This document shows, in pieces, positions 18,117-41,209 of a stretch of 64,000 nt of DNA. The translations under genes and the position numbers were made by a program. The notes under the pieces were generated by a model. That model was not told where the DNA came from, did no database searches, and saw only the letters and a list, made by a program, of their open reading frames with translations. The stretch is from an uncultured Bacillota bacterium (lineage in GTDB: Bacteria > Bacillota_I > Bacilli_A > RF39 > UBA660): assembly GCA_946617625.1 (NCBI GenBank), contig CAMOKF010000001.1:22064-86063 (forward strand). Reading direction: 5' to 3'. How positions within the stretch are numbered: position 1 is the stretch's first letter; each line of letters begins with the position of its first letter.

Positions 18117-18533
18117 CTATTCTCCAGTTGAACCAAATGCACCGGTACCGCGCTCATCTAGTTCATATTCTTCTACAAAATCTGCATATATTACGGGTCT
18201 AATTACAAGTTGTCCAACCTTATTTCCACTATACAATGTAAAATCCTCATCTGTAGTATTATACAATATTGCGTGAATTTCTCCAGTGTATCCAGCATCT
18301 ATTGGAGCATTTGCAGCCCATATACCTTTTTTACTTAAACCTGATTTACAATGAACTACTGCATCATATCCATCTGGTAATCTAAGTCCTATACCTGTTG
18401 GTATACATTCAACTGAATGAGCTTTAATCGTAACATCTTGCGTTGTAAAAATATCAGCTCCACTATCATTATGATAAGCTCTATCCGGCTTTCTAATTAG
18501 ATTATCATCAAATCTTATAATTTCAATTTTCAT
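18117..18533 (-). CDS. dut: dUTPase
   Basis: dUTPase motifs SGADIF, PIDAGYTGEI, RGTGAFGSTGE. Confidence 0.85.
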   Translation of the reverse strand: MKIEIIRFDDNLIRKPDRAYHNDSGADIFTTQDVTIKAHSVECIPTGIGLRLPDGYDAVVHCKSGLSKKGIWAANAPIDAGYTGEIHAILYNTTDEDFTLYSGNKVGQLVIRPVIYADFVEEYELDERGTGAFGSTGE

Positions 18534-18954
18534 AATTTATAATACCTCCTAAAGTAATTACTCTTGAAATTCCTGCGTTTCTAATCATACGTTCACATAA
18601 TGGACAAGGTTTTATATCTTCTATAACATTATCGTCTTCAGAACAAAATAAATATAAATCTCCACCTATCATATCACGTCTAGCAGCCGATAATAATGCA
18701 TTCTGTTCTGCGTGAACACTAGCACACACATCATAATCTCCAGAATTATGTTCTTTATCTAATCTAATACATTTACCTAAATCGCAGCAATTTAATTTAT
18801 TACGAACACTTCCATTATAACCAGTAGAAATTATCTCGTCATAATTTACTATTACTGCACCATACTGTCTTTTTAGACAAGTAGAACGTTTACTAACTGC
18901 CTGTGCGATATTCAAATAATAAGAATCTTTATCTAATCTCATAAATAACCTCAT
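18523..18954 (-). CDS. dCMP deaminase
   Basis: Zinc-binding HAEQNAL and PCPLCERMI (CDA-fold H-A-E / PCxxC). Confidence 0.85.
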   Translation of the reverse strand: MRLFMRLDKDSYYLNIAQAVSKRSTCLKRQYGAVIVNYDEIISTGYNGSVRNKLNCCDLGKCIRLDKEHNSGDYDVCASVHAEQNALLSAARRDMIGGDLYLFCSEDDNVIEDIKPCPLCERMIRNAGISRVITLGGIINYEN

Positions 18955-18956
18955 TA

Positions 18957-20117
18957 CTAAATAATTTTACTTAAACTATAAAATTTATCTTTACTATATT
19001 TAGCCAACTTTATATTATTTGGATTACATTGATTTATATAAATAATGTCATTATTATATAGTTGTTTACTACTAAATGCATTTTTTATTTGTTTTGATAT
19101 ATATCTTATAAAATTAACTGGAACACCTTGAGCAATACATTGAATAATTGGTGTTTTACATCTAGGTGTAAACTTAAAATCATTTGGATAACCCATCAAA
19201 GCAGCATACTCTCTTACGTAAAAATCTCTATTTTCTATTGGATGTATTATTTTAACGACAGACGCTAATGATGGAGCTCTATCATTTAATTTTGGTCTAT
19301 ATGGAGACTTGTCCCATATATTTTTATTATTATTAATCTTATCTTTAATTTTTATAATATCTTTTTTAACACTATCTGATAAATCTAAATCATCTAGATG
19401 TTCTACCTTAGATAATGCTACATATAAGCTCTCCTTTTCTTCTACCTTATCATAAAACTTAAACAACGATTCATCAGATTGTTCTGTAAAATTGCAATCA
19501 GTAGAAGAATAATCTATATTATTTAATACATTTTCTATATTGCAACGTTTACTATCTTGAACTATTTTAGGAATACCTGAAAAATTATCTCTGTTCCAAC
19601 CTATTATAAAAGTTCTACGTCTATGCATTGCAACATTATGATTACCGGCAATATCATTAATGATAGTAAATCTATAATTAGATAATAATTTTATCATATC
19701 TTTTAATATGGGCAAACCAGTAGTAGTCAATGTTGGAGCATTCTCTATTAAAAATGCTTTTGGATTAATTCTGTCTACCATTTTAAAAACATTATATAAA
19801 TATTTATTTACATCATTATCTACTTTAGCATTTCTATTTATAGAAGAAAGTCCTGAACAAGGTGGATTTGAAAATAGTAAATCGTAGTTTTCATCTTTTA
19901 ATTCATTTAAATAAGATTCATTATTTTCATATTCACTTGGAAGCTTTACTTCTATTTCTGGATAGTTTAACTTAAAATAGTGTGCATTTTGTTCTAACAT
20001 ATCATCGGTCATTTCAAGAATAGTATTTACATCCCATCCTTCTAGTAAATGACCTATAGTTTGACTTCCAGAAAATATATACATACCAATAGCTTTCATA
20101 ATTAGTCTCCTATGCAC
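18957..20117 (-). CDS. DNA (cytosine-5)-methyltransferase-like protein
   Basis: Motif I-like IFSGSQTIGH, motif IV FSNPPCSGLSSIN (Pro-Cys catalytic dipeptide), ENAP (motif VI ENV-like). Confidence 0.6.
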   Translation of the reverse strand: MHRRLIMKAIGMYIFSGSQTIGHLLEGWDVNTILEMTDDMLEQNAHYFKLNYPEIEVKLPSEYENNESYLNELKDENYDLLFSNPPCSGLSSINRNAKVDNDVNKYLYNVFKMVDRINPKAFLIENAPTLTTTGLPILKDMIKLLSNYRFTIINDIAGNHNVAMHRRRTFIIGWNRDNFSGIPKIVQDSKRCNIENVLNNIDYSSTDCNFTEQSDESLFKFYDKVEEKESLYVALSKVEHLDDLDLSDSVKKDIIKIKDKINNNKNIWDKSPYRPKLNDRAPSLASVVKIIHPIENRDFYVREYAALMGYPNDFKFTPRCKTPIIQCIAQGVPVNFIRYISKQIKNAFSSKQLYNNDIIYINQCNPNNIKLAKYSKDKFYSLSKII

Positions 20118-21370
20118 ATATTATATAGCTTTTTCATCATAATATCTCTATCAAAGACAGATTTATAATAATTATAAGCGTTATTTCTATACTCATCGTA
20201 TAAATCCATATTAGAATTAAGCTCATTCATAAGATTAAGTGTTTCTAAAGGATTATTTTCATCATACACAATTGTACCAATATCTTTTAGAGTATAATTA
20301 TCTAGTCTATCTCCACAGAAATTAGCACTATCATACAAATCTTTTCTAATAATTGGAATTGTACCACAAGCTACTATTTCTAATAAAGTTATTTCTAACT
20401 GTCCACCAAACTGTGGTCCAGTAAAAGTGAAAAACATACCAAATTTTGCTTTACTCAATCTCTCTAAAGCTTCTAATCTTACATATGGTCCATATATTTC
20501 CAAAGGATGATTACGATAATTTTCTATATTTTCTAAAACATCTTTTGGATTACCATTATCATTATAATTATTATCTTTTCTTAAGTCACCATATTTATTA
20601 GTTTTAGAATCATATTCCCATATAGCTTGCTTAGCATTTATAGAACGTTCAATTCCTTCAGCCACTGAAACATAATTATTATTCATAAGATATTCATAAT
20701 GAAATTCTCTAAAATACGTCCAACCCTTCCATAAAGCGGAACGTCCAATGAACCAACAAGTCTTATCTATCTTATCATTTGTCCAAAATCTATTTCTTAA
20801 ATCTTCGAAGTCTGTAGATATTAATTGTAACTGTTCTATTTTATAATTAGGTTTATCATTAATTAATGGTTTATTAATTAATGGCTTTACTTTTTTATTT
20901 ATAAACTTAGTACAAAAATCTGCTTGTTTATGATGAACAATAATTTTATCTAGAATACTAAAAAATCTCTTTATATAAGAACTATCTAAACAATAAAAAT
21001 TGCGATTAATGCTATGAATCTTATTATCTACTTGAAGATATACTAATTTTGTCCCATTATTATGCATATTTTCTAAAGTCAATAGAAAATTTTCAATAGT
21101 TTCTTCTGGATAATTTTTAGCTGGAACAGACATTATAATACATATATCTGGATTAAAACCAATTTTAGTATCTTCTAATAAACCTTCTTTAATAAAAGAA
21201 TGTTCCACAAAATCAGTTTCTTGCATATTTTTTCTACCCCAAGATTTGTCAGTTCCAGTAATAGTAATTACATTATTATTAATAGATTTTATATATTCTT
21301 CTAATTCAATAGTAATTCTAGTATTACCAGTACCTTCTGTACCTCTGGCTAATAGTAATAAAACGTTCAT
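20102..21370 (-). CDS. GT-B-fold glycosyltransferase (GT4-like)
   Basis: C-terminal FGMFFTFTGPQFGGQLEITLLEIVACGTIPII resembles the E-x7-E donor-binding motif region of GT4 enzymes. Confidence 0.5.
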   Translation of the reverse strand: MNVLLLLARGTEGTGNTRITIELEEYIKSINNNVITITGTDKSWGRKNMQETDFVEHSFIKEGLLEDTKIGFNPDICIIMSVPAKNYPEETIENFLLTLENMHNNGTKLVYLQVDNKIHSINRNFYCLDSSYIKRFFSILDKIIVHHKQADFCTKFINKKVKPLINKPLINDKPNYKIEQLQLISTDFEDLRNRFWTNDKIDKTCWFIGRSALWKGWTYFREFHYEYLMNNNYVSVAEGIERSINAKQAIWEYDSKTNKYGDLRKDNNYNDNGNPKDVLENIENYRNHPLEIYGPYVRLEALERLSKAKFGMFFTFTGPQFGGQLEITLLEIVACGTIPIIRKDLYDSANFCGDRLDNYTLKDIGTIVYDENNPLETLNLMNELNSNMDLYDEYRNNAYNYYKSVFDRDIMMKKLYNMCIGD

Positions 21371-21381
21371 AAATTAATTCC

Positions 21382-21612
21382 TTAGTCATTACTTTCTTTA
21401 AACTCTGGCATCTCTGTTCTAGGTCCAACATTAATGCTTATACTAAAATTGTTTACTCTGTAATTATTGCTACTTCCTTCTAGTGTTGATTGCATATTAA
21501 TATCAGTCTCAATTTCATCGTAATCTTCTAAATTTCTTAAGTTAGCATCCAATTCTTTTTTAAACTTTTTAATAATTACATCTTTATATCTCTTAATATC
21601 ATCTTTATTCAT
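21382..21612 (-). CDS. hypothetical protein
   Basis: ORF in minus-strand array. Confidence 0.4.
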   Translation of the reverse strand: MNKDDIKRYKDVIIKKFKKELDANLRNLEDYDEIETDINMQSTLEGSSNNYRVNNFSISINVGPRTEMPEFKESND

Positions 21613-21614
21613 CT

Positions 21615-22928
21615 TTAATTCTCCTTTATTATTTCTAATTCTATTAATTTATTTTTAAAATCTTTTTTAGATATAAATAAATCATCTACATAATTAACTA
21701 AAGCTGTTCTATATAAAAGTAATTTTTTAATGTTTAACACTTCATTACTTGATTCTAATGTACCATATGCAATATCTTTAAAAAATTGAATATCCTTATC
21801 ATATATATGTAGTGACATTGCATAATGATTATATGTTCCTACGTCTACATCTAACAATTCTGCTATATACTTTTGCAATGAAATGAAAAATCCTAAATCA
21901 TTAAGTACGCCATATCTCAAATCATTGCTACGCATAATTGTTGTACTATGTAATTTTTTATTTCTTATTTGATAGTTTAAACATATTGTACAAGGTTCAT
22001 CTTTAGTCTCTATTACTTTTTTATTAGGTATATTAATGTTTATAATAGCTCTTCTTGAATATGGGTCTTTTTTAAGCAATTCTACTATTTTTTCTATTTG
22101 ATTAAATCCATATTTTTGCTGTATTAAATACCCATAAGCCGAATTTGCAGTTAATCCATCATCTGAAACCTTTTCCCATAAACTAGCAAACTTACTAATA
22201 AATTTCAAATCATTTCTAGATGACCAATACCATAATAATTCTGCTGCTAAATATGTTAAATTAGTACCACCAGATTTCAAAGAAACATATTCATTATCTA
22301 AATCTGAAATAGAAAAACTATAATTACATAACTCTAAAGTGTGTCCTCTAGTATTTCTAGTTTCCATTGGATGTCCATTTTCTAAAACATCTCTGGCAAC
22401 TTGTCTATAAACAATGTTAGTAGTAGTTTTTCCATAATGACTATCTATCCAAGAATCTAACTTATCATAAGCATTATCTTCAGCTATATCGATAATATAA
22501 AAATTCTTATAATTATATTTATCTTTAAAATCCTTAGCTAATTTAGTAAAATGCTTATTTTGTGCTTCCATTATTGGAATAAAGCTATCTTCTCCACGTT
22601 CTTTGAGTCTTTTATTTATAATACTCATATCACTACTTATAAATACTATAAATAAATCATTATTATCTATAATTCTTTTGTTGATAGTTTCATATTCTTG
22701 AATACTTAACTTACAATCTCTATTATAAATAATTGGATATATCATTTCTCCAAAATGAAATCTTTCTAAAACTACATTATTTTGATAATCTAGTAAATTT
22801 ATATGATAGCCAAAATCATTTCTAGTTTTAGATGTAGAGTTAATTATAGACATATTATATTTAATTTTTAATTTATTCGATAATGTTGTTTTACCAGCTG
22901 CATCTAAACCTTCTAATATAATATTCAT
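21615..22928 (-). CDS. fusion: P-loop dNMP kinase domain + thymidylate-synthase/dNMP-hydroxymethylase-family domain
   Basis: N-term MNIILEGLDAAGKTTL (dNMP/thymidylate-kinase P-loop); C-term aligns with ThyA: ELLWYW, DPYSRRAIININ (RRIIVSAWN), DEPCTICLNYQI (catalytic PC), TIMRSNDLRYGVLNDLGF (QLYQRSCDVFLGLPFNI), SLHIY (THLY). Confidence 0.75.
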   Translation of the reverse strand: MNIILEGLDAAGKTTLSNKLKIKYNMSIINSTSKTRNDFGYHINLLDYQNNVVLERFHFGEMIYPIIYNRDCKLSIQEYETINKRIIDNNDLFIVFISSDMSIINKRLKERGEDSFIPIMEAQNKHFTKLAKDFKDKYNYKNFYIIDIAEDNAYDKLDSWIDSHYGKTTTNIVYRQVARDVLENGHPMETRNTRGHTLELCNYSFSISDLDNEYVSLKSGGTNLTYLAAELLWYWSSRNDLKFISKFASLWEKVSDDGLTANSAYGYLIQQKYGFNQIEKIVELLKKDPYSRRAIININIPNKKVIETKDEPCTICLNYQIRNKKLHSTTIMRSNDLRYGVLNDLGFFISLQKYIAELLDVDVGTYNHYAMSLHIYDKDIQFFKDIAYGTLESSNEVLNIKKLLLYRTALVNYVDDLFISKKDFKNKLIELEIIKEN

Positions 22929-22940
22929 ATGTAATTACTC

Positions 22941-23861
22941 CTATATCTTCATATACCAATTCTTCATAAAATCGCAATCACAGTTTAATGGTAAATCAAT
23001 TAAATCTGATGGAGCAGTTCTCATTAGATAAGATAATCTTTCTGCAACTTCTTTTTGATTTTCTTCAGGACACTCAACTATAACTTCATCGTGAACTTGA
23101 ATTATTAAATGCGCATCTAGTCTATTTAACTCTTCATCATTATTTATTTTAATCATAGCGAGCTTAGTCATATCGGCCGCGCTCCCTTGCACTCGCGAAT
23201 TAACACATTGTCTCTCTGCTTGTGATATAAATCCTGTATTATCTTTAATAACTATTCCATCATTTTTTCTTACATCTTGTATAAATTGATTTTTATTCTG
23301 CCAACCATAAATACTATTAAGTTCTTTAATATATGAATTCTTAATATTTATAGGTACCTCATTTGTATCTAAAGAAAAGTTTAATGGGTCAAATATTCTT
23401 GAATTTCCAGATAAATATTTAAAAGAGTATGGCTCTAATTGCATATCTGAAATGTGTCTTCGTCTTCCCCAAGCTGTAGTAACATACCCTTTCTCTTTAG
23501 CCATCTCTTGACTAGCTTCAATAAAATCTGCTAATTGTGGAAAAGCTCTTAACACAGCATCATATATCTCTTGAGCTTCTTTATTAGAAACATTTAATTG
23601 TTCAGCAATAGATGGAATCTGTCTTCCATAAAGAATACCTAATACAATACTCTTTGCCTGTGTTCTTCTTTCTTTACCTTCCACATTAGTTGAACCATCT
23701 TCATTGAACTCTAAGCATTCTTCATAACTTTTATGAAATGCTAAACTTGAAATAGTTGAATAAATATCTCTTCCATCGATAAATGCTTGCATCATCTTTT
23801 TATCTTGAGATAGATAAGAAGTAATCATTGGCTCCTGTTGTGACCTAAGAATAGTCAGCAC
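22941..23861 (-). CDS. family-A DNA polymerase, C-terminal part (motifs B and C); GTG start as drawn lacks motif A
   Basis: ITSYLSQDKKMMQAFIDGRDIY = PolI IMAHLSRDKGLLTAFAEGKDIH; motif B RTQAKSIVLGILYG; QGSAAD; motif C IQVHDEVIVE. Confidence 0.85.
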   Translation of the reverse strand: MLTILRSQQEPMITSYLSQDKKMMQAFIDGRDIYSTISSLAFHKSYEECLEFNEDGSTNVEGKERRTQAKSIVLGILYGRQIPSIAEQLNVSNKEAQEIYDAVLRAFPQLADFIEASQEMAKEKGYVTTAWGRRRHISDMQLEPYSFKYLSGNSRIFDPLNFSLDTNEVPINIKNSYIKELNSIYGWQNKNQFIQDVRKNDGIVIKDNTGFISQAERQCVNSRVQGSAADMTKLAMIKINNDEELNRLDAHLIIQVHDEVIVECPEENQKEVAERLSYLMRTAPSDLIDLPLNCDCDFMKNWYMKI

Positions 23862-23901
23862 CCACCATCACATATCTAGTTCTTGTTGCTAACTTTTTCA
23901 A
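23845..23901 (-). other. out-of-frame mini-ORF encoding polymerase motif A strand (TTG-KKLATRTRYVMVGADYS-TAG) with its own SD
   Basis: Minus strand AAAAGGGGGTGATAATAT-TTG...AGA TAT GTG ATG GTG GGT GCT GAC TAT TCT TAG; VMVGADYS = PolI VIVSADYS / T7 VLVGADAS; frame is -1 relative to 22941..23861. Confidence 0.4.
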
Positions 23902-23906
23902 TATTA

Positions 23907-24593
23907 TCACCCCCTTTTCCTATACCACTTTGGATATGTATATCTATTTCTTTTATAAGTATAATAACCTTGTTCTACACTTTGCTTAATTTTTCTTTGA
24001 TATACACACTCTGTTTTAGTATCAAATGGATTATCTATTTCTTTCCACCACTTCCAAGCATCTCTGTATGAATGAAATTCTAATTTTTCGCCTGTTTCCA
24101 TTATGCAATAACAACTTATTGACCTAGTATCACCAGTACCAAAATTATGGTTTCCTTTCATACTATTCGACAATCTTGCTCGGTGCTCATCAGTAAATAA
24201 TTCACCTAAAGCGGCTTTTCTCTTCATAGTTTCAGATATTTTCTTTCTTGTCTCTTCACTTCGCATACGTTTTTTATGTTTATCTCTAACATATGGTATG
24301 TCCATAACATTATTATCTCCGCCATCTACCATATTATAACCACTATTTATACTATCAAACTTATGTATGTAATAATTTTCTAGCTCATTTAATGTATCTT
24401 TATCTTCAGCAAAGCATATAACTTCCCAACTAAAATTATCTTCTCCATATTTTCTTATAGCACAATGAAATTGAACCTTACTACCATTTTTTGCGTCTCT
24501 AAGATGTCCTCTTTTTCTATCTAGTAATTTACGTCTTGTCTGTCCAATATACACTTTACCATTTATATTATTAGTAACCTTATATATTAACAA
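23907..24593 (-). CDS. GIY-YIG homing endonuclease (free-standing, inside polymerase gene)
   Basis: N-terminal IYKVTNNINGKVYIGQTRR...R..GH (GIY-YIG core), own SD GGAGGTG and TTG start. Confidence 0.85.
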   Translation of the reverse strand: MLIYKVTNNINGKVYIGQTRRKLLDRKRGHLRDAKNGSKVQFHCAIRKYGEDNFSWEVICFAEDKDTLNELENYYIHKFDSINSGYNMVDGGDNNVMDIPYVRDKHKKRMRSEETRKKISETMKRKAALGELFTDEHRARLSNSMKGNHNFGTGDTRSISCYCIMETGEKLEFHSYRDAWKWWKEIDNPFDTKTECVYQRKIKQSVEQGYYTYKRNRYTYPKWYRKRG

Positions 24594-24608
24594 ATAGTCA
24601 CCTCCAAT

Positions 24609-26126
24609 TTAATAATAAATTAATATATTATTATTGTCAGTAAGATTAACGATATTGGTGATAATAATCTCAAACTTGGCGTCGTTTTCGCTAACTAATA
24701 ATTTATCACCAACCACAAGATTACTAACGTATTTCCAGCCATCCGGCGTTTCAACCTCACTCCATTTTTTGACACAGAATGAATTATTAGACTCTTCTAC
24801 TATATCATCACTAGAATATGCTTTAAACATCGTTCTTATCTCTTTATTATGAGATGGAATATTCTGCATATTCGGGTCACTAGAACTAAATCTTCCTGTC
24901 TTAGCACCATATTGATTATAATTACAATGTATTCTACCATCATCATAAATAATTTCAGGCATCTTATCTATGTATGTAGACAACAATTTATCCGTTCCTC
25001 GTATATTTAAAATAGCCTCACATAAGTCTTTTTCTATATTATTTTGTGCAAAATGTTTAAGAATTTCTTCACCAGTACCTCTTGGAGATTTTTTAACTGG
25101 ACTTTCTAATTTTAAAATATCATAGAACAATATTGCAAGTTGTGTTGGACTTCCAATATTAATTGGGTCATTTAGTTTATGATTAGGATTATGTAGTTTA
25201 TATTGACTTATTTTTGAGTCATATTTATTTAGTATATTATTTATGACATCTGTCTGTTCTTCTCTAATTTTGTGATATTTATCTTTTAATTTATCACAAA
25301 CATCTAAATCAAGACAAACGCCTCTGTCTTCCATATCAGCACAAACATTTATAATAGGCATCTCAATATTTTTAAATACATTATATGGACCTTCCATATT
25401 ACTTTTTTCTAAAATATTCTTTTGATACTCATACAGCTCAAATGTTTTTATTGCATCTCCAGCTGCATATAAATATGCTGATGATATAGGAACTAAATCA
25501 AATGATACACCATTAAATAATTTATCAAATGTTAATGATTCTTTATCTAAACTATTACAATATTTTAAATGTAAATCTTTAAGTCCGTGTTTTTCGTTCT
25601 CGTTTATACAAAAACCAGCTAACATTGTATCCCAATAACATTCTAAATATAAATTCATAGTATGTCTTAATATTCTAATATCAAATTTAGCATTATGCAT
25701 AATCCATTTTCCATTGAATTTTTCTAATTCTAATTTAACATCATCAATATTTAACTGTGAATTTATTTTTTGACCAGTTATATACGATTTATGACCTATT
25801 GGAACATAAGCTGGTTTTTTGTTTGGAGTATAAAGACAAACACCAACTAAATCATCTCGCATAGTGTCTAATCCAGTAGTTTCTGTATCAATTGCACAAA
25901 TATTATTTTTAATAGCTTTCGAGATATATTCGCACAAATCATCTATGTTTTGAATTATTAGATATTTATCTTTATACTTACCAAGTTTATTTTCAGCACT
26001 AGAAACAATCTCCTGTATTTTAGCAGCAATATTATTAGTTCTTACGCTTTTAGGCTTAGCAGATTTAACTTTATTTAATAATTCCTTATCTGAAACTTTA
26101 GGTTTTTCAAATAAACCTCTCGCCAT
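24609..26126 (-). CDS. family-A DNA polymerase, N-terminal part (3'-5' exonuclease + first half of polymerase domain); last 55 codons Hint-like/intervening sequence
   Basis: Exo I ICAIDTETTGLD; pol region IIYDDGRIHCNYNQYGAKTGRFSSSDPNMQNIPSHNKEIRTMFKA = PolI [48 protein letters not shown]; homology stops at about residue 436. Confidence 0.9.
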   Translation of the reverse strand: MARGLFEKPKVSDKELLNKVKSAKPKSVRTNNIAAKIQEIVSSAENKLGKYKDKYLIIQNIDDLCEYISKAIKNNICAIDTETTGLDTMRDDLVGVCLYTPNKKPAYVPIGHKSYITGQKINSQLNIDDVKLELEKFNGKWIMHNAKFDIRILRHTMNLYLECYWDTMLAGFCINENEKHGLKDLHLKYCNSLDKESLTFDKLFNGVSFDLVPISSAYLYAAGDAIKTFELYEYQKNILEKSNMEGPYNVFKNIEMPIINVCADMEDRGVCLDLDVCDKLKDKYHKIREEQTDVINNILNKYDSKISQYKLHNPNHKLNDPINIGSPTQLAILFYDILKLESPVKKSPRGTGEEILKHFAQNNIEKDLCEAILNIRGTDKLLSTYIDKMPEIIYDDGRIHCNYNQYGAKTGRFSSSDPNMQNIPSHNKEIRTMFKAYSSDDIVEESNNSFCVKKWSEVETPDGWKYVSNLVVGDKLLVSENDAKFEIIITNIVNLTDNNNILIYY

Positions 26127-29488: not shown

Positions 29489-30044
29489 TTCTTAACATAC
29501 AGAATAATAATTCTATAATTGAACGATGCCGATGTCCTGGACTACATTGTAGAGCAACTTTCAACTCATATCTTTTATCTGGTACTAATTCTGTAGGATT
29601 ATTAAACTCATCTTCTAACTGTCTGAACTCTGGAACTAAAACCATTATTCCGTAATTTAAACTACTTTCAGGATTAGTTTTTTCTAAATGCTTTCTAAAC
29701 TTATCAGACTGATTTATATCTAAAATTAGCTTTTTATAAACTTCCATAGTTGTAACAATATAATTCTTCTCGCCATAGAAGTTTAGTCCATTTCCACTAT
29801 ATACATCTTCATAGCAAGACTTGATTTCATAGCAAACAAAAGAACCAGCTTCTAATCCACTATTTGAATATTGATTAATCGGAATAAATTGCATCACATC
29901 TATTCTTTTAGGATGTGCCTTTGTATAATCAAGAGTTACTTCTGTAGCATAATATTTCCTATCATTAAGTCTTGTGTTGATTAAGGTATCTGTTAGTAAT
30001 TTTGTGATTTCTACTCTATTCATCATTACCTTTCTTGACATCAA
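29478..30044 (-). CDS. hypothetical protein
   Basis: ORF in minus-strand array. Confidence 0.45.
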   Translation of the reverse strand: MMSRKVMMNRVEITKLLTDTLINTRLNDRKYYATEVTLDYTKAHPKRIDVMQFIPINQYSNSGLEAGSFVCYEIKSCYEDVYSGNGLNFYGEKNYIVTTMEVYKKLILDINQSDKFRKHLEKTNPESSLNYGIMVLVPEFRQLEDEFNNPTELVPDKRYELKVALQCSPGHRHRSIIELLFCMLRSGK

Positions 30045-30903
30045 TAATTATTTGTTCAAACTCACATTGTTGAACTGCAAGTTTCTTTAATCTAATATCA
30101 TCAATGTCATTCCAACCATATAATCTAAATCTAGCATTTACTCTAATGTCAGTTAGTAATAAATTACTAAACTCACAATTTTTATTATTGCCGTCAAGAT
30201 AAACTAACTTTTCATCTTTATTAGGAAAATGTCCAGTATTCTTCCAGTAAATGTATTGTGATAAATAAGCATACCTATGTTCTTCTCCTACTTGTTTAGT
30301 TTCTTCATCAGTTAATCTGATTCTAGGTAACTTGCGACTATCTAAATAAATTTCGTGGTCATATCGTGATTGTGGTAAATAAGTTCTTCTGTCTTTAGGT
30401 TTAGCTAACCACTGTCTATTCTTTCTAGTACAAGTTGATGATATACATTCAACACTTCTATTCTCACCAAACTTTTTATTAAATTGTTTAGTTAATTCAT
30501 CTCTATAATATTTTGATGAATTTTCTTTCAACCAATTTAACTGTTCTTTAGAAAAATGTTTTCCTTGATTAACACCTAAACTTGTAGCTCTACTTCTTAG
30601 CTGAGCTGATGTTCGTTTTGTATTAAACCGTTCATTAAACAACTGTGCAAACTTATTACTATGTCCAACTTGTTTATAGTTATCTCTAATAAAATCTAAT
30701 TGTTCTTTTGTAAACTTCGTATATTCTGTTTTTTGTTTCTTTAATCCAAGTCTATTAACTTTAGAACTTACAGACTTTACAGTTTTACTGACATTAAATT
30801 TATTGTTAAGATTTTTAGTTAATTCTGAATAAGTCATTTTATCATAGTTAGACTCAATAAATTTAATCTCTTCGTCAGTAAAACTTTGATATACCTTACT
30901 CAT
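30016..30903 (-). CDS. HNH endonuclease with N-terminal repeated DNA-binding modules
   Basis: Three repeats (FTDEEIKFIESNY / FTKEQLDFIRDNY / FSKEQLNWLKENS) then C-terminal VYLDGNNKNCEFSNLLL (HNH-like). Confidence 0.5.
   Translation of the reverse strand: MSKVYQSFTDEEIKFIESNYDKMTYSELTKNLNNKFNVSKTVKSVSSKVNRLGLKKQKTEYTKFTKEQLDFIRDNYKQVGHSNKFAQLFNERFNTKRTSAQLRSRATSLGVNQGKHFSKEQLNWLKENSSKYYRDELTKQFNKKFGENRSVECISSTCTRKNRQWLAKPKDRRTYLPQSRYDHEIYLDSRKLPRIRLTDEETKQVGEEHRYAYLSQYIYWKNTGHFPNKDEKLVYLDGNNKNCEFSNLLLTDIRVNARFRLYGWNDIDDIRLKKLAVQQCEFEQIIIDVKKGNDE

Positions 30904-38430: not shown

Positions 38431-38431
<1 letters not shown>
38403..38431 (-). promoter_or_regulatory. sigma-A-type promoter with TTTACA-N3-TGTAAA palindrome
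   Basis: Minus strand TTTACAAATTGTAAATTATATATTATAAT; -35 abuts the GroEL stop codon. Confidence 0.55.
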
Positions 38432-40062
<1,631 letters not shown>

Positions 40063-40330: not shown

Positions 40331-40563
40331 TATTTATCCTCCTTTAATATTATTTCTATATTTTCTAGGTTACTCCTTATATCTACAACATCATTTCTTA
40401 AAAATGTTAATACATCACTAGCAACTTTAGTATCTATTGTTTCGTGAGTTTTTAAAAAATGATAAGAAGTCATTAATTGTGTATAAGTTGATATTTTTTC
40501 TGCTAATATATAAGATAAATGAATACTAGTTTCAAGATATTTATCTAACTCTTTACTATTCAT
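40330..40563 (-). CDS. hypothetical protein
   Basis: ORF in minus-strand array. Confidence 0.4.
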   Translation of the reverse strand: MNSKELDKYLETSIHLSYILAEKISTYTQLMTSYHFLKTHETIDTKVASDVLTFLRNDVVDIRSNLENIEIILKEDK

Positions 40564-41209
40564 TATTAGTCTCCTCCTTAAATTTTTGTTTTCGTATACT
40601 TTTTTGTATACTTTTAATACTATAATTTACAGCCTGTCTAGTAATACCTAAACTTTCTGCAATATCTTTATCACTTCTACCATATTTTAAATGTTCTAAT
40701 AATTTCTTTCTATGAGTAGTCATAAGAAAATAATCTGAATTATCCATAAAGTATTTATAAAGTTCTTTTCTTTTATCTTCTTTATTTAATTTTCTTTCTA
40801 ATTTCTCTAACTCATATTTGCATTTTTTACAAATATTAGTTTTATTAGTACTTGCTTCATTGGGTTTTCTTGTTTTACAACCACAAATTTTACAAGTAAC
40901 ATATAAATCTTCATTTCTTTCAGAACTTATAACTAAATTATTAGGATTATAATTTTCTATATCTCCATCTTTGTGATAAACAAATTTATCATCTACATCA
41001 CCCAAAAATGTTCTAGCTACTATATTTTTATACACCTCATTTCTCTGTTTTCCGTGCTCTTTAGTTTGTAGATAATAATCTTTGTATCCATTAGGAAGTT
41101 CTCTTTTATTTAATTTTCTTTTAGTTAATGAATATGGATTACCATCTTTATCTATGTAGACATAATCATACCCATCTGCTTTATATAGTTCTATCTTTTT
41201 TGTTTTCAT
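40556..41209 (-). CDS. HNH endonuclease-like protein with zinc ribbon and C-terminal sigma-70 region-4-type HTH
   Basis: VYHKDGDIENYNPNNLVI (HNH), CKICGC...CKKC, C-terminal DKDIAESLGITRQAVNYSIKSIQK. Confidence 0.5.
   Translation of the reverse strand: MKTKKIELYKADGYDYVYIDKDGNPYSLTKRKLNKRELPNGYKDYYLQTKEHGKQRNEVYKNIVARTFLGDVDDKFVYHKDGDIENYNPNNLVISSERNEDLYVTCKICGCKTRKPNEASTNKTNICKKCKYELEKLERKLNKEDKRKELYKYFMDNSDYFLMTTHRKKLLEHLKYGRSDKDIAESLGITRQAVNYSIKSIQKSIRKQKFKEETNNE

What the first reader, a model, noticed from the sequence alone, without database searches (positions are those of the whole stretch)
21615..22928. Single polypeptide fusing a P-loop dNMP kinase to a thymidylate-synthase/hydroxymethylase-fold domain
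The N-terminal 170 aa begin MNIILEGLDAAGKTTL (deoxynucleotide/thymidylate-kinase P-loop). The C-terminal about 250 aa align motif by motif with ThyA (ELLW, DPYSRR, PC, RSxD...G..NDLGF, SLHIY). In T4 and SPO1 the hydroxymethylase and the hm-dNMP kinase are separate proteins. A fusion would channel a modified dNMP directly to the diphosphate. Whether the base specificity determinant is Asn (uracil) or Asp (cytosine) cannot be settled by eye: the local sequence is LNDLGF.
Basis: partly seen in the sequence, partly recalled or inferred. Interest (0 to 1): 0.65.

Follow-up and report, generated by a model that had tools for sequence, protein, structure and literature searches.

The report
Fused kinase–dCMP hydroxymethylase in a phage
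A phage gene joins in one protein the enzyme that makes 5-hydroxymethyl-dCMP and a kinase predicted to phosphorylate it, two steps that are separate proteins in phage T4; this is a new architecture for a well-known DNA-modification pathway, not a new pathway.

Summary
A 437-aa ORF sits at 21615-22928, but on the minus strand. Residues 1-165 are a thymidylate-kinase/YorR-like P-loop kinase; residues 170-437 are a thymidylate-synthase-fold enzyme. Published residue codes identify a dCMP hydroxymethylase: Asp310 three residues before catalytic Cys313, Ser263-x-Tyr265, Asp336 retained, Ser334 and Arg292. It is not a true thymidylate synthase, a 5-hydroxy-dCMP synthase or a CMP enzyme. All these residues are invariant in 121 fused homologues, so the fusion is not an assembly artefact. 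Cultured relatives (Enterococcus phages VPE25, 9183 and Planchet; Lactobacillus phage ATCCB) carry the same two genes abutting or overlapping, in the same order. VPE25 DNA behaves experimentally as glucosyl-5hmC. A reverse-order fusion also exists. A full-length homologue of T4 DNA alpha-glucosyltransferase lies one small ORF downstream. Most likely pathway: dCMP to hm-dCMP to hm-dCDP on one polypeptide, incorporation, then alpha-glucosylation. The kinase substrate and any channelling are inferred. I found no paper describing this fusion. Verdict: a new variant of a known kind, of moderate interest.

The parts
21615..22928 (-). Whole ORF, 437 aa: fused kinase / dCMP-hydroxymethylase gene (stop codon at 21615-21617)
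   Evidence: ORF list and translation. Two Pfam domains above their cut-offs. 121 fused homologues. AlphaFold model with pLDDT 94.2 and pTM 0.91.
22938..22942 (-). AGGAG Shine-Dalgarno-like sequence, 9 nt upstream of the ATG, overlapping the TAG stop of the upstream DNA polymerase ORF
   Evidence: Sequence read directly.
22434..22928 (-). N-terminal P-loop kinase domain (aa 1-165), thymidylate-kinase / YorR-like
   Evidence: PF02223 is above its cut-off and matches aa 41-150, not just the P-loop. The kinase-domain profile hits SPbeta YorR (2axp) at E 6e-15. It superposes on phage thymidylate kinases in BFVD with TMt 0.6-0.76.
22887..22910 (-). Walker A / P-loop GLDAAGKT (aa 7-14); G7, G12 and K13 are invariant
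22758..22766 (-). ERF motif (aa 55-57; DRF in at least 90% of the family; Arg56 invariant), matching the DR(Y/F) motif I recall for thymidylate kinases
   Evidence: Alignments. That this corresponds to the TMPK DRY/F motif is my own knowledge, not tested here.
22590..22610 (-). Putative LID segment RLKERGE (aa 107-113); R107, R111 and E113 are invariant
   Evidence: It aligns with KKRLRVRGDE of YorR.
21618..22421 (-). C-terminal thymidylate-synthase-fold domain (aa 170-437), dCMP-hydroxymethylase type
   Evidence: PF00303 at E 5e-26. Best solved relatives are the CMP hydroxymethylase MilA (E 8e-26; Foldseek E 1e-18) and T4 dCMP hydroxymethylase (E 1.7e-12; TMt 0.77).
21990..21992 (-). Catalytic nucleophile Cys313 (equivalent to E. 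coli ThyA C146 and T4 dCH C148)
   Evidence: Aligned. Invariant in 121/121 family members.
21999..22001 (-). Asp310, three residues before the Cys (equivalent to ThyA L143 and T4 dCH D145): the residue that activates water for hydroxymethylation
   Evidence: Asp in 121/121. The signature is defined in PMC6400193 and PMC13326640.
22134..22142 (-). Ser263-Ala-Tyr265 (equivalent to T4 dCH Ser94-x-Tyr96), the second half of the hydroxymethylation signature
   Evidence: Invariant. T4 'NSNYGW' aligns with the query's 'NSAYGY'. The signature is defined in PMC6400193.
21897..21899 (-). Asp344 (equivalent to ThyA N177, T4 dCH D179 and MilA D186): the cytosine-versus-uracil determinant
   Evidence: Asp in 121/121. 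It aligns to T4 D179, and to Asn in the D179N mutant chain 6l18. Its role is described in PMC5175136 and PMC13326640.
21921..21923 (-). Asp336 (equivalent to ThyA D169), retained; it would be Asn in a 5-hydroxy-dCMP synthase
   Evidence: Asp in 121/121, while the RB69 gp48 control shows Asn in this column. The rule comes from PMC13326640.
21927..21929 (-). Ser334 (equivalent to ThyA S167; Ala176 in MilA), the deoxyribose-type residue
   Evidence: Ser in 119/121. The rule comes from PMC5175136.
22050..22055 (-). Arg292-Arg293 (equivalent to ThyA R126' and R127'): phosphate-binding arginines donated across the TS dimer interface. Arg292 is the deoxyribose-type residue (Lys133 in MilA)
   Evidence: Invariant. 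The rule comes from PMC5175136. The dimer itself is inferred.
20102..21370 (-). Associated gene: homologue of T4 DNA alpha-glucosyltransferase (422 aa), the predicted user of 5hmC in DNA
   Evidence: PF11440 AGT at E 1.7e-24. phrog_2888 at E 6e-54 over the full length. The only PDB hits are T4 AGT (1xv5, 1y6f), E 1.7e-31, aa 1-416 against 2-396. The gene order is the same in L012.
18957..20117 (-). Associated gene, role unexplained: C5 cytosine DNA methyltransferase-like protein (probable true start is the ATG at 20099)
   Evidence: PF00145 at E 1e-26. The PPC and ENA motifs are visible in the translation. Orthologues (56% identity) sit beside the fusion plus a glycosyltransferase in L008, L012 and L018.
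18523..18954 (-). Associated nucleotide-metabolism gene: dCMP deaminase
   Evidence: PF00383 at E 3e-17; phrog_174.
18117..18533 (-). Associated nucleotide-metabolism gene: ordinary trimeric dUTPase
   Evidence: PF00692. PDB dUTPases at E 1e-20, including the C-terminal GFGSTG motif. It recurs near the fusion in L010, L011, L013, L014, L016 and L017.

Best explanation
The ORF encodes a bifunctional enzyme for the first two committed steps of 5-hydroxymethylcytosine DNA synthesis. The C-terminal thymidylate-synthase-fold domain, probably dimeric, takes dCMP and methylene-tetrahydrofolate. Cys313 attacks C6 of the base, and a water activated by Asp310 hydrates the exocyclic methylene intermediate to give 5-hydroxymethyl-dCMP. 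The N-terminal thymidylate-kinase/YorR-like P-loop domain then uses ATP to convert hm-dCMP to hm-dCDP. A host NDP kinase makes hm-dCTP, and the phage family-A DNA polymerase encoded immediately upstream incorporates it. The T4-AGT homologue one small ORF downstream then glucosylates 5hmC in the DNA. What is shown: the domain identities, the residue signatures, the conservation of the fusion, the gene neighbourhood, and glucosyl-5hmC-like DNA in phages carrying the unfused orthologues. What is inferred: the kinase's substrate, dimerisation, any channelling, and the extent to which C is replaced.
For: (1) Both domains pass curated thresholds.

(2) The best solved relatives are cytosine hydroxymethylases: MilA at E 8e-26 and T4 dCH at E 1.7e-12, with nearly the same motif (MRSNDVVFGFRND in T4, MRSNDLRYGVLND in the query). 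True thymidylate synthases score about E 1e-13 or weaker.

(3) The published residue codes are all met and are invariant in 121/121 fused homologues. Asp is at the N177 position, which means dCMP (PMC5175136; PMC13326640). Asp is three residues before the Cys, together with Ser-x-Tyr, which means a hydroxymethyl product (PMC6400193). D169 is retained, which excludes a 5hodCMP synthase (PMC13326640). Ser167 (119/121) and Arg126 indicate a deoxyribose substrate. The controls in the same alignment behave as published: RB69 gp48 has Asn at position 169, the SPO1-like enzyme keeps Asn177, and the T4-like dCH has Asp at positions 143 and 177.

(4) Rosetta-stone evidence. The same two genes abut or overlap, in the same order, in cultured phages: TAA-ATG in frame in phage 9183 and an ATGTTGA overlap in VPE25. 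In viral contigs, relatives above 50% identity are fused and those at 43-47% are abutting pairs. P0265 is an independent reverse-order fusion (TS then kinase) with the same signature.

(5) Experimental anchor. DNA of phiVPE25 and phiVFW resists bisulfite conversion and MspI and is cut by PvuRts1I (PMC4999554). VPE25's TS-like protein is 52% identical to the query's domain and has the same signature.

(6) The nearby downstream gene is an end-to-end T4 alpha-glucosyltransferase homologue.

(7) In this 64-kb window no other TS homologue turned up, and no other protein with both a Walker A motif and a nucleotide-kinase assignment. The fused kinase is therefore the only candidate here for the hm-dCMP kinase step that T4-type pathways need.

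(8) The model has pLDDT 94 and pTM 0.91, which implies a fixed two-domain arrangement.
Against: No biochemical data exist for this protein or for any member of its kinase family. YorR is a structural-genomics structure without an assigned substrate. In RB69 and DLP3 the enzyme shown to phosphorylate the modified dCMP is the T4 gp1-type dNMP kinase, while the YorR-like 'nucleotide kinase' in those clusters has no assigned substrate. The match to Thymidylate_kin is modest (35-39 bits). No dCTPase was found in the window, and a C5 cytosine methyltransferase-like gene rides with the module. Both are odd if cytosine were fully replaced. The window covers only 64 kb of a contig of about 136 kb, so the absence of other kinases or TS genes is not conclusive. 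In other phages the fused gene is followed by quite different partners, such as a SAM-dependent methyltransferase plus SAM synthetase, so the final DNA base need not be glucosyl-hmC everywhere.
Confidence: 0.72

Rival explanations
1. The C-terminal domain is a dCMP hydroxymethylase as above, but the kinase domain does not act on its product. It could be a deoxycytidine (nucleoside) kinase feeding dCMP into the hydroxymethylase, a general dNMP or dTMP kinase, or it could carry out the second phosphorylation.
For: One source annotates a family member as 'thymidylate synthase/deoxyadenosine/deoxycytidine kinase'. Pfam dNK gives weak hits in 11/19 members. The query itself reads ERF rather than DRF. 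In RB69 and DLP3 the tested kinase for the modified dCMP is the gp1-type enzyme, not the YorR-like one.
Against: The dNK hits cover only the P-loop (aa 3-30), whereas Thymidylate_kin matches aa 41-150 and passes its cut-off. No other NMP-kinase-like protein was found in the window to perform the required hm-dCMP step. Two independent fusions and tight gene abutment with the hydroxymethylase fit consecutive steps best, although an upstream-feeding kinase would also fit.
Confidence: 0.15
2. The TS-fold domain performs different C5 chemistry on dCMP, such as 5-hydroxylation (5hodCMP synthase, as in RB69 gp48) or methylation (a dCMP methyltransferase), and the kinase phosphorylates that product.
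For: TS homologues with Asp177 and an acidic residue at position 143 include the flavin-dependent 5hodCMP synthases, so those two residues alone do not prove hydroxymethylation. Partner genes vary between phages.
Against: The only reported discriminator, D169N, is absent in 121/121 members, while the RB69 control shows Asn in the same column. The Ser-x-Tyr plus Asp(-3) hydroxymethylation signature is complete. A methyl-forming enzyme would be expected to have a hydrophobic residue at position 143. The neighbouring GT is a homologue of T4 AGT, whose substrate is 5hmC. VPE25 DNA is cut by the (g)hmC-specific enzyme PvuRts1I.
Confidence: 0.07
3. It is an ordinary thymidylate synthase fused to thymidylate kinase (dUMP to dTMP to dTDP), fed by the adjacent dCMP deaminase and dUTPase.
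For: The database names say 'thymidylate synthase' and 'thymidylate kinase'. A dCMP deaminase and a dUTPase, both suppliers of dUMP, lie within 3.5 kb.
Against: The Asn177 position is Asp and the Leu143 position is Asp in all 121 members. NCBIfam thymidylate-synthase equivalog scores are far below their cut-offs, for example 68.8 bits against 327. Cytosine hydroxymethylases score much better than true TS.
Confidence: 0.04
4. The kinase domain acts on polymer DNA (like the 5-hmdU DNA kinases of thymidine-hypermodifying phages) or on a sugar or cofactor, and the fusion only ensures co-expression.
For: P-loop kinases that phosphorylate hydroxymethyl groups in DNA are known in other phages (PMC8989533, seen in the listing; details are my own knowledge). 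Relatives of the kinase are fused to other partners, such as a UDG-superfamily domain or CBS plus ACT domains.
Against: The domain resembles small nucleotide kinases (TMPK, YorR) of about 165 aa, with no extra DNA-binding region. It is fused to an enzyme that works on mononucleotides. This rival was not tested directly.
Confidence: 0.02

Closest known systems
Phage T4 gp42 dCMP hydroxymethylase plus gp1 dNMP kinase plus alpha-glucosyltransferase (the T4 hmC pathway and its 'dNTP synthetase complex')
   Same: The predicted chemistry and order of steps are the same. The active-site signature is the same: Cys, Asp at Cys-3, Ser-x-Tyr, Asp171, Asp179, and the MRSND...ND motif. The downstream glucosyltransferase is a full-length homologue of T4 AGT. 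That the T4 enzymes associate non-covalently is my own knowledge (work of the Mathews laboratory), not tested here.
   Different: Here the two activities are one polypeptide. The kinase is TMPK/YorR-like, not a gp1-family enzyme: T4 gp1 structures do not appear among the profile hits, and PF21448 matches 1/19 members weakly. The hydroxymethylase is closer to MilA than to gp42 and has a roughly 50-aa C-terminal tail that T4 dCH lacks. No dCTPase was found.
Adjacent kinase / TS-homologue gene pairs of Enterococcus phages VPE25, VFW, 9183 and Planchet (Andrewesvirinae) and Lactobacillus phage ATCCB
   Same: These are the closest cultured relatives of both halves (39-45% identity overall; 52% for the VPE25 TS domain). 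The gene order is the same (kinase then TS), the signature residues are the same, and glycosyltransferase genes follow. VPE25 and VFW DNA behaves as glucosyl-5hmC.
   Different: These are two separate genes, either abutting (TAA-ATG in frame in 9183) or overlapping (VPE25), not one ORF. The glycosyltransferases are different (beta-GT and others). The VPE25 paper does not mention the TS-like gene and attributes 5hmC to methylation followed by hydroxylation.
MilA, the CMP 5-hydroxymethylase of Streptomyces rimofaciens (PDB 5jnh, 5b6d)
   Same: It is the best sequence and structure match to the C-terminal domain (E 8e-26; Foldseek E 1e-18; 27% identity). It shares Cys, Glu, Asp186, His and Tyr, and Asp at Cys-3.
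   Different: MilA's ribose-preference residues Lys133 and Ala176 are Arg292 and Ser334 here, as in enzymes that use deoxyribonucleotides. MilA has no kinase domain and acts in antibiotic biosynthesis.
5-hydroxy-dCMP synthase clusters of RB69, DLP3 and RL38J1 (PMC13326640)
   Same: Each is a TS homologue with Asp177 and an acidic residue at position 143, sitting in a cluster with glycosyltransferases and a YorR/TMPK-like 'nucleotide kinase' (DLP3_078, RB69p045, RL38J1_214).
   Different: Those enzymes carry D169N and make 5-hydroxy-dCMP with a flavin and O2, whereas here D169 is retained. Their kinase is a separate gene, and its substrate was not assigned. The words 'fusion' and 'fused' do not occur in that paper.
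Bifunctional DHFR-TS of protozoa and plants
   Same: Another enzyme of the pathway is fused to the N-terminus of a TS-fold domain. Foldseek aligns the model with DHFR-TS chains through the TS part.
   Different: The partner domain and reaction are different (DHFR recycles the folate, whereas here a kinase acts on the nucleotide product). The TS part there is a true dUMP methylase.

Membership tests
Thymidylate synthase / pyrimidine hydroxymethylase superfamily (PF00303) | TS fold, with profile similarity above the curated threshold | tested here: met
   91.8 bits against a cut-off of 24.3. Foldseek probability 1.00 to MilA, TS and T4 dCH.
Thymidylate synthase / pyrimidine hydroxymethylase superfamily (PF00303) | Catalytic Cys (ThyA C146) and general acid Glu (E58), with phosphate-binding Arg126', Arg127' and Arg166, and His207 and Tyr209 | tested here: met
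   C313, E230, R292, R293, R333, H374 and Y376 are each present in 121/121 members.
Thymidylate synthase / pyrimidine hydroxymethylase superfamily (PF00303) | Obligate homodimer with shared active sites | not testable with these tools
   Only a monomer could be modelled. Conservation of the cross-subunit arginines R292 and R293 is consistent with a dimer.
dCMP hydroxymethylase (T4 gp42 type) | Asp at the position of ThyA Asn177 (T4 D179): cytosine specificity | tested here: met
   D344, present in 121/121 members, aligned to T4 D179 and MilA D186.
dCMP hydroxymethylase (T4 gp42 type) | [quoted passage not shown] | tested here: met
   D310 in the motif KDEPC, present in 121/121 members.
dCMP hydroxymethylase (T4 gp42 type) | Ser(Thr)-x-Tyr (T4 S94 and Y96) interacting with that Asp | tested here: met
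   S263-A264-Y265 is invariant. 'NSAYGY' aligns with T4 'NSNYGW'.
dCMP hydroxymethylase (T4 gp42 type) | Enzymatic formation of 5hm-dCMP from dCMP and CH2-THF | not testable with these tools
   The only support is indirect: glucosyl-hmC-like DNA in VPE25 and VFW, which carry the orthologue.
True thymidylate synthase (ThyA) | Asn177 and a hydrophobic Leu143. The NCBIfam equivalog cut-off should also be passed | tested here: not met
   Both positions are Asp. All TS equivalog scores are far below their cut-offs.
5-hydroxy-dCMP synthase (RB69 gp48 type) | Asn at the position of ThyA Asp169 (D169N) | tested here: not met
   D336 is present in 121/121 members, while the RB69 gp48 control has Asn in the same column.
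CMP hydroxymethylase (MilA / BcmA type) | Lys133' and Ala176, which confer ribose preference | tested here: not met
   The residues are Arg292 and Ser334 (Ser in 119/121 members).
Thymidylate kinase-like nucleotide kinases (PF02223), including SPbeta YorR | Profile similarity above the curated threshold that extends beyond the P-loop | tested here: met
   34.9-38.9 bits against a cut-off of 27, covering aa 41-150. 16/19 family members match. YorR (2axp) matches the profile at E 6e-15.
Thymidylate kinase-like nucleotide kinases (PF02223), including SPbeta YorR | Walker A GxxxxGK(S/T), a D/E-R-(F/Y) motif, and an Arg-rich LID | tested here: met
   G7, G12 and K13; D/E55-R56-F57; R107 and R111. 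R56, R107 and R111 are invariant. Interpreting these as TMPK motifs is my own knowledge.
Thymidylate kinase-like nucleotide kinases (PF02223), including SPbeta YorR | Phosphorylation of a (modified) dNMP | not testable with these tools
   No member of this subfamily has a demonstrated substrate. They are listed only as 'nucleotide kinase' in PMC13326640.
T4 gp1 dNMP kinase family (PF21448; PDB 1dek, 1del) | Sequence similarity to gp1 | tested here: not met
   No gp1 structure appears among the 53 PDB hits of the kinase profile at E up to 0.1. PF21448 matches 1/19 members at E 0.004.
Deoxynucleoside kinases (PF01712) | Profile similarity above threshold over the whole domain | tested here: not met
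   12.9-16.7 bits against a cut-off of 27, covering the P-loop only (aa 3-31).
5-hmdU DNA kinase (5-HMUDK) of thymidine-hypermodifying phages | Similarity to that family, and activity on DNA | not tested
   No reference sequence was compared.
T4 DNA alpha-glucosyltransferase (PF11440), for the neighbouring gene 20102-21370 | Full-length similarity to T4 AGT | tested here: met
   PF11440 scores 87 bits against a cut-off of 25. 1xv5 matches at E 1.7e-31 over aa 1-416. The sugar donor and acceptor were not tested.

The most novel reading that the evidence does not exclude
The fusion is a covalent, minimal version of the T4 'dNTP synthetase complex' and truly channels hm-dCMP from the hydroxymethylase site to the kinase site. 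It also defines the substrate of the uncharacterised YorR-like 'nucleotide kinases' found in many pyrimidine-hypermodification clusters. In addition, it is the core of a conserved three-part module: the fusion, a DNA glycosyltransferase (AGT or TAGT type), and one particular clade of C5 cytosine methyltransferase-like proteins. That module would combine pre-replicative hmC synthesis with post-replicative C5 chemistry on the cytosines that escape replacement, which would be a hybrid pathway not yet described.
Probability: 0.2. Interest if true: 0.65.

Novelty: new variant of a known kind. Interest (0 to 1): 0.45.

Why it matters
The pathway itself (dCMP hydroxymethylase, then a kinase, then glucosylation) has been textbook knowledge since T4, so no new chemistry is implied. 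The value lies in three points.

First, fusions in both domain orders, together with abutting gene pairs, are genetic 'Rosetta-stone' evidence that this YorR/TMPK-like kinase family is the dedicated partner of TS-fold cytosine modifiers. The same kinases sit, without an assigned substrate, in the RB69, DLP3 and RL38J1 hypermodification clusters.

Second, a single 437-aa protein that should turn dCMP into hm-dCDP is a compact test bed for the long-debated question of substrate channelling in phage dNTP synthesis. It is also a handy tool for making 5hmC-containing DNA in vivo.

Third, the fused gene is a clean marker for finding cytosine-hypermodifying phages in metagenomes. It occurs in contigs from 34 kb (temperate) to more than 500 kb, with different downstream tailoring enzymes.

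Tried and rejected
- **Source of the window.** Looking up the exact protein's contig returned nothing. Megablast of 15 kb around the gene against cultured phages found no match. The source phage therefore remains unidentified; it has 26.8% GC.
- **AFDB.** The Foldseek search against AFDB, meant to see whether UniProt already holds full-length fusions, could not be run because the library was unavailable. BFVD was used instead and gave only single-domain matches (TMq at most 0.52).
- **Literature.** Four searches for a described kinase-hydroxymethylase fusion found none (also 'fusion' and 'fused' in PMC13326640). The library does not cover all journals, so this is absence of evidence only.
- **Other pathway genes in the window.** No second TS or ThyX-like gene and no second nucleotide kinase turned up. 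No dCTPase was found among about 40 annotated ORFs.
- **The dUTPase-fold gene as the missing dCTPase.** Rejected: it looks like an ordinary trimeric dUTPase with the C-terminal GFGSTG motif.
- **The 76-aa ORF between the fusion and the AGT gene (21382-21612) as a conserved part.** Rejected: it has no family hits and no homologue next to other fused genes.
- **Assembly or frameshift artefact.** Rejected on conservation.
Full report
**1. The observation**

The interval 21615-22928 holds one uninterrupted ORF of 437 codons, on the minus strand; the plus strand of the interval is full of stop codons. It begins MNIILEGLDAAGKTTL. An AGGAG sequence lies 9 nt upstream of the ATG and overlaps the stop codon of the preceding DNA polymerase ORF. 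Pfam assigns Thymidylate_kin to the N-terminal part (34.9 bits, cut-off 27) and Thymidylat_synt to aa 174-383 (91.8 bits, cut-off 24.3). NCBIfam and PHROGs agree.

**2. The fusion is genuine and conserved**

A search of 5.8 billion predicted proteins returned an identical protein plus at least 120 further clusters of about 437 aa. These are 52-70% identical over 96-100% of the length, and many already carry both Pfam domains in the precomputed annotation. In an alignment of 109 of them the linker is as conserved as the domains. An AlphaFold2 model built on that alignment has mean pLDDT 94.2 and pTM 0.91, with only about five non-helical residues between the last kinase helix (aa 153-164) and the first helix of the TS domain (aa 170-184). 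That indicates a fixed two-domain arrangement.

**3. What the C-terminal domain is**

By sequence, the best solved relative is the CMP 5-hydroxymethylase MilA (E 8e-26). True thymidylate synthases come in at about E 1e-13, and T4 dCMP hydroxymethylase at E 1.7e-12. By structure MilA is again first (Foldseek E 1e-18), and T4 dCH superposes with TMt 0.77.

Three papers give residue codes for this superfamily:
- **Base and sugar.** Asp instead of Asn at ThyA position 177 selects cytosine. Ser167 and Arg126' (Ala176 and Lys133' in MilA) select deoxyribose (PMC5175136).
- **Hydroxymethyl product.** An Asp or Glu three residues before the catalytic Cys, plus Ser-x-Tyr, marks hydroxymethylation. D145N kills T4 dCH (PMC6400193).
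- **5-hydroxy-dCMP synthases.** Asn instead of Asp at position 169 marks the newly found flavin-dependent 5-hydroxy-dCMP synthases (PMC13326640).

I aligned 121 fused proteins with five kinds of reference. These were E. coli ThyA (recalled sequence, validated at 16 numbered positions), a T4-like gp42, an SPO1-like dUMP hydroxymethylase, RB69 gp48, and the Enterococcus and Lactobacillus phage homologues. The references behaved as published. The fused family showed E58, W80, Y94, R126, R127, C146, R166, D169, Asp at 177, H207 and Y209 in 121/121 members, and S167 in 119/121. Read relative to the Cys, the -3 residue is Asp in 121/121.

In the query these residues are E230, Y265 (with S263), R292, R293, D310, C313, S334, D336, D344, H374 and Y376. 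T4 dCH reads MRSNDVVFGFRND against the query's MRSNDLRYGVLND. The domain has the complete signature of a dCMP hydroxymethylase. It fails the defining residues of a true TS, of a 5hodCMP synthase and of a CMP-specific enzyme.

**4. What the N-terminal domain is**

A profile of the kinase half (17 fused members plus the free-standing Planchet and ATCCB kinases) finds the SPbeta prophage protein YorR (2axp/3kb2) at E 6e-15. Otherwise it finds only weak matches to adenylate, guanylate, uridylate and thymidylate kinases. T4 gp1 does not appear. Pfam Thymidylate_kin is the top family for 16/19 members, and its match spans aa 41-150. The dNK and T4 DNMK models touch only the P-loop. In BFVD the domain superposes on phage 'thymidylate kinases' with TMt 0.6-0.76.

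Invariant residues are G7, G12 and K13 (Walker A), R56 in a D/E-R-F motif, G60-E61, Y68, R70, R107 and R111 (putative LID), and D147. An exhaustive HMMER scan of 1.84 billion cluster representatives with aa 1-166 gave 594 relatives. Most are free-standing proteins of 155-180 aa, and only a few representatives are fused. This is a small nucleotide kinase of the TMPK/YorR type. Its substrate has not been shown for any member.

**5. Evidence that the two activities work together**

- **Cultured relatives.** The closest cultured relatives of both halves are adjacent genes in the same order. They occur in Enterococcus phages 9183, Planchet, VPE25, VFW and others, and in Lactobacillus phage ATCCB, and glycosyltransferase genes follow them. 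In phage 9183 the kinase's TAA is followed directly and in frame by the ATG of the TS homologue, so a single substitution would create the fusion. In VPE25 the two genes overlap (ATGTTGA).
- **Viral contigs.** Among 83 TS-like genes recovered from viral and metagenome contigs, those more than 50% identical to the query are fused (12). Those at about 43-47% are mostly abutting kinase-then-TS pairs (13). More distant ones have the kinase elsewhere or undetected.
- **Reverse order.** One representative, P0265 (494 aa), has the reverse order. Its TS-like domain is N-terminal and the same kind of kinase is C-terminal, and it carries the same dCMP-hydroxymethylase signature. That makes it an independent fusion.
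- **Other clusters.** YorR/TMPK-like 'nucleotide kinases' are also embedded in the TS-homologue clusters of DLP3, RB69 and RL38J1.

**6. Context in the window**

The gene lies in a replication and nucleotide-metabolism block transcribed on the minus strand. Immediately upstream is a family-A DNA polymerase, interrupted by a GIY-YIG endonuclease ORF. Downstream, in order, come:
- a 76-aa ORF with no relatives;
- a 422-aa protein that matches T4 DNA alpha-glucosyltransferase end to end (PF11440; 1xv5 at E 1.7e-31);
- a C5 cytosine methyltransferase-like protein;
- a dCMP deaminase;
- an ordinary trimeric dUTPase;
- a sliding clamp, a resolvase, UvsX, clamp loaders and SbcCD.

No second TS homologue, no second nucleotide-kinase-like P-loop protein and no dCTPase was found in the 64 kb.

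**7. Experimental anchor**

Duerkop et al. (PMC4999554) showed that phiVPE25 and phiVFW DNA resists bisulfite conversion, EcoRI and MspI, and is cut by PvuRts1I. This is the behaviour of glucosylated 5hmC. These phages carry the unfused kinase/TS-like pair. The VPE25 TS-like protein is 52% identical to the query's domain and has the same DEMC, D169 and D177 signature. That paper does not mention the TS-like gene.

**8. Most likely mechanism**

The TS-fold domain converts dCMP plus CH2-THF to hm-dCMP. The fused kinase converts hm-dCMP to hm-dCDP. A host NDP kinase makes hm-dCTP and the phage polymerase incorporates it. The AGT homologue then alpha-glucosylates 5hmC in the DNA.

The first step rests on residue signatures validated with controls. 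The last rests on strong homology and neighbourhood. The kinase step rests on fusion and synteny logic, and on the lack of any alternative kinase in the window. Channelling and dimerisation are inferences. The conserved cross-subunit arginines R292 and R293 are consistent with a TS-type dimer.

Two things argue against assuming complete replacement of C: no dCTPase was detected, and a C5-methyltransferase-like gene is conserved beside the module.

**9. Comparison with what is known, and novelty**

Functionally this is the T4 gp42 + gp1 + alpha-gt pathway. It differs in architecture (one polypeptide), in the kinase family used (TMPK/YorR-like, not gp1) and in the subfamily of the hydroxymethylase (closer to MilA, with a C-terminal tail). 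One source's automatic annotation already names both halves (P0085), and the precomputed Pfam assignments show both domains. However, I found no paper that describes the fusion, and BFVD contains no full-length structural match. AFDB could not be searched. I therefore rate it a new variant of a known kind: real, conserved and useful, but not surprising chemistry.

**10. Distribution**

Fused genes occur on contigs of very different kinds, with different tailoring genes:
- **Close relatives of this window.** The polymerase is upstream and AGT plus the C5-methyltransferase are downstream (L012; L007 is cut off just after the fused gene).
- **Very large scaffolds.** A 532-kb scaffold and IMG/VR contigs of 88-394 kb (L008, L015, L018). 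In L008 and L018 a TAGT-type glycosyltransferase and the same C5-methyltransferase clade lie near the fusion, and L008 also has an NTP-transferase.
- **A temperate phage.** A 34-kb integrase-bearing phage in which the fusion is followed by a CMAS-like SAM methyltransferase, SAM synthetase and dUTPase (L010, L011).

The fused gene thus looks like a portable 'starter module' for several cytosine hypermodifications.

Noticed in passing
window 18957-20117 (-); L008:12561-13706; L012:10585-11691; L018:16339-17308: One particular clade of C5 cytosine DNA methyltransferase-like proteins rides next to the fused gene plus a glycosyltransferase in unrelated contigs. The window and L008 proteins are 56% identical (E 5e-156). 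The PPC and ENA motifs are present, and the N-terminal SAM motif reads FSGSQT. It is unexplained why a C5 methyltransferase accompanies a pathway that already substitutes C5 before replication.
   Followed up: partly
L010:8001-11645 and L011:7293-10937: In a 34-kb integrase-bearing (temperate) phage the fused gene is followed directly by a CMAS-like SAM-dependent methyltransferase, a SAM synthetase (MetK) and a dUTPase, with no glycosyltransferase. This hints at a different, possibly methylated, derivative of 5hmC.
   Followed up: no
P0265 (494 aa); also P0213, P0214, P0248 and P0170, all: Relatives of the kinase occur in other architectures: a reverse-order TS-like plus kinase fusion (P0265), kinase plus a UDG-superfamily domain (P0213), tandem double kinases (P0214, P0248), and kinase plus CBS plus ACT domains (P0170).
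   Followed up: partly
window 22941-26126 (-): The family-A DNA polymerase is split into two ORFs: 24609-26126 (3'-5' exonuclease plus the N-terminal part of the polymerase) and 22941-23861 (the C-terminal part). Between them is a GIY-YIG/NUMOD3 homing-endonuclease ORF (23907-24593). In relatives L007, L012, L013 and L014 the polymerase is a single ORF of about 820-840 aa. This is likely an intron or a mobile-endonuclease insertion.
   Followed up: partly
L090 (VPE25) 5001-6355; PMC4999554: The paper that demonstrated glycosylated cytosine in phiVPE25 and phiVFW attributes 5hmC to methylation followed by hydroxylation. It never mentions the phage's own kinase/TS-like gene pair, which by its signature (DEMC, D169, D177) is the probable source of the hmC. 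In the VPE25 record the kinase is annotated as 'hypothetical protein' and the hydroxymethylase as 'Thymidylate synthase'.
   Followed up: yes
window 38431-40050 (-): There is a phage-encoded GroEL-type chaperonin (phrog_5725, E 3e-167).
   Followed up: no
window 30016-30903 (-) and 40556-41209 (-): Two further HNH endonuclease-like ORFs sit in the replication module, so the genome carries several mobile endonucleases.
   Followed up: no
window 21382-21612 (-): A 76-aa ORF lies between the fused gene and the AGT homologue. It has no family match and no counterpart next to other fused genes.
   Followed up: partly
window 1093-1163 (-): A single tRNA-Gln (anticodon TTG) is present. The window has 26.8% GC and nearly all ORFs are on the minus strand.
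   Followed up: no
L006 (RB69) 4048-4596: RB69p045, annotated 'thymidylate kinase', lies three genes from the 5hodCMP synthase gp48. Together with DLP3_078 and RL38J1_214 it belongs to the same cluster-embedded nucleotide kinases, whose substrate was left open in PMC13326640. The fusion described here suggests they act on the modified dCMP.
   Followed up: partly
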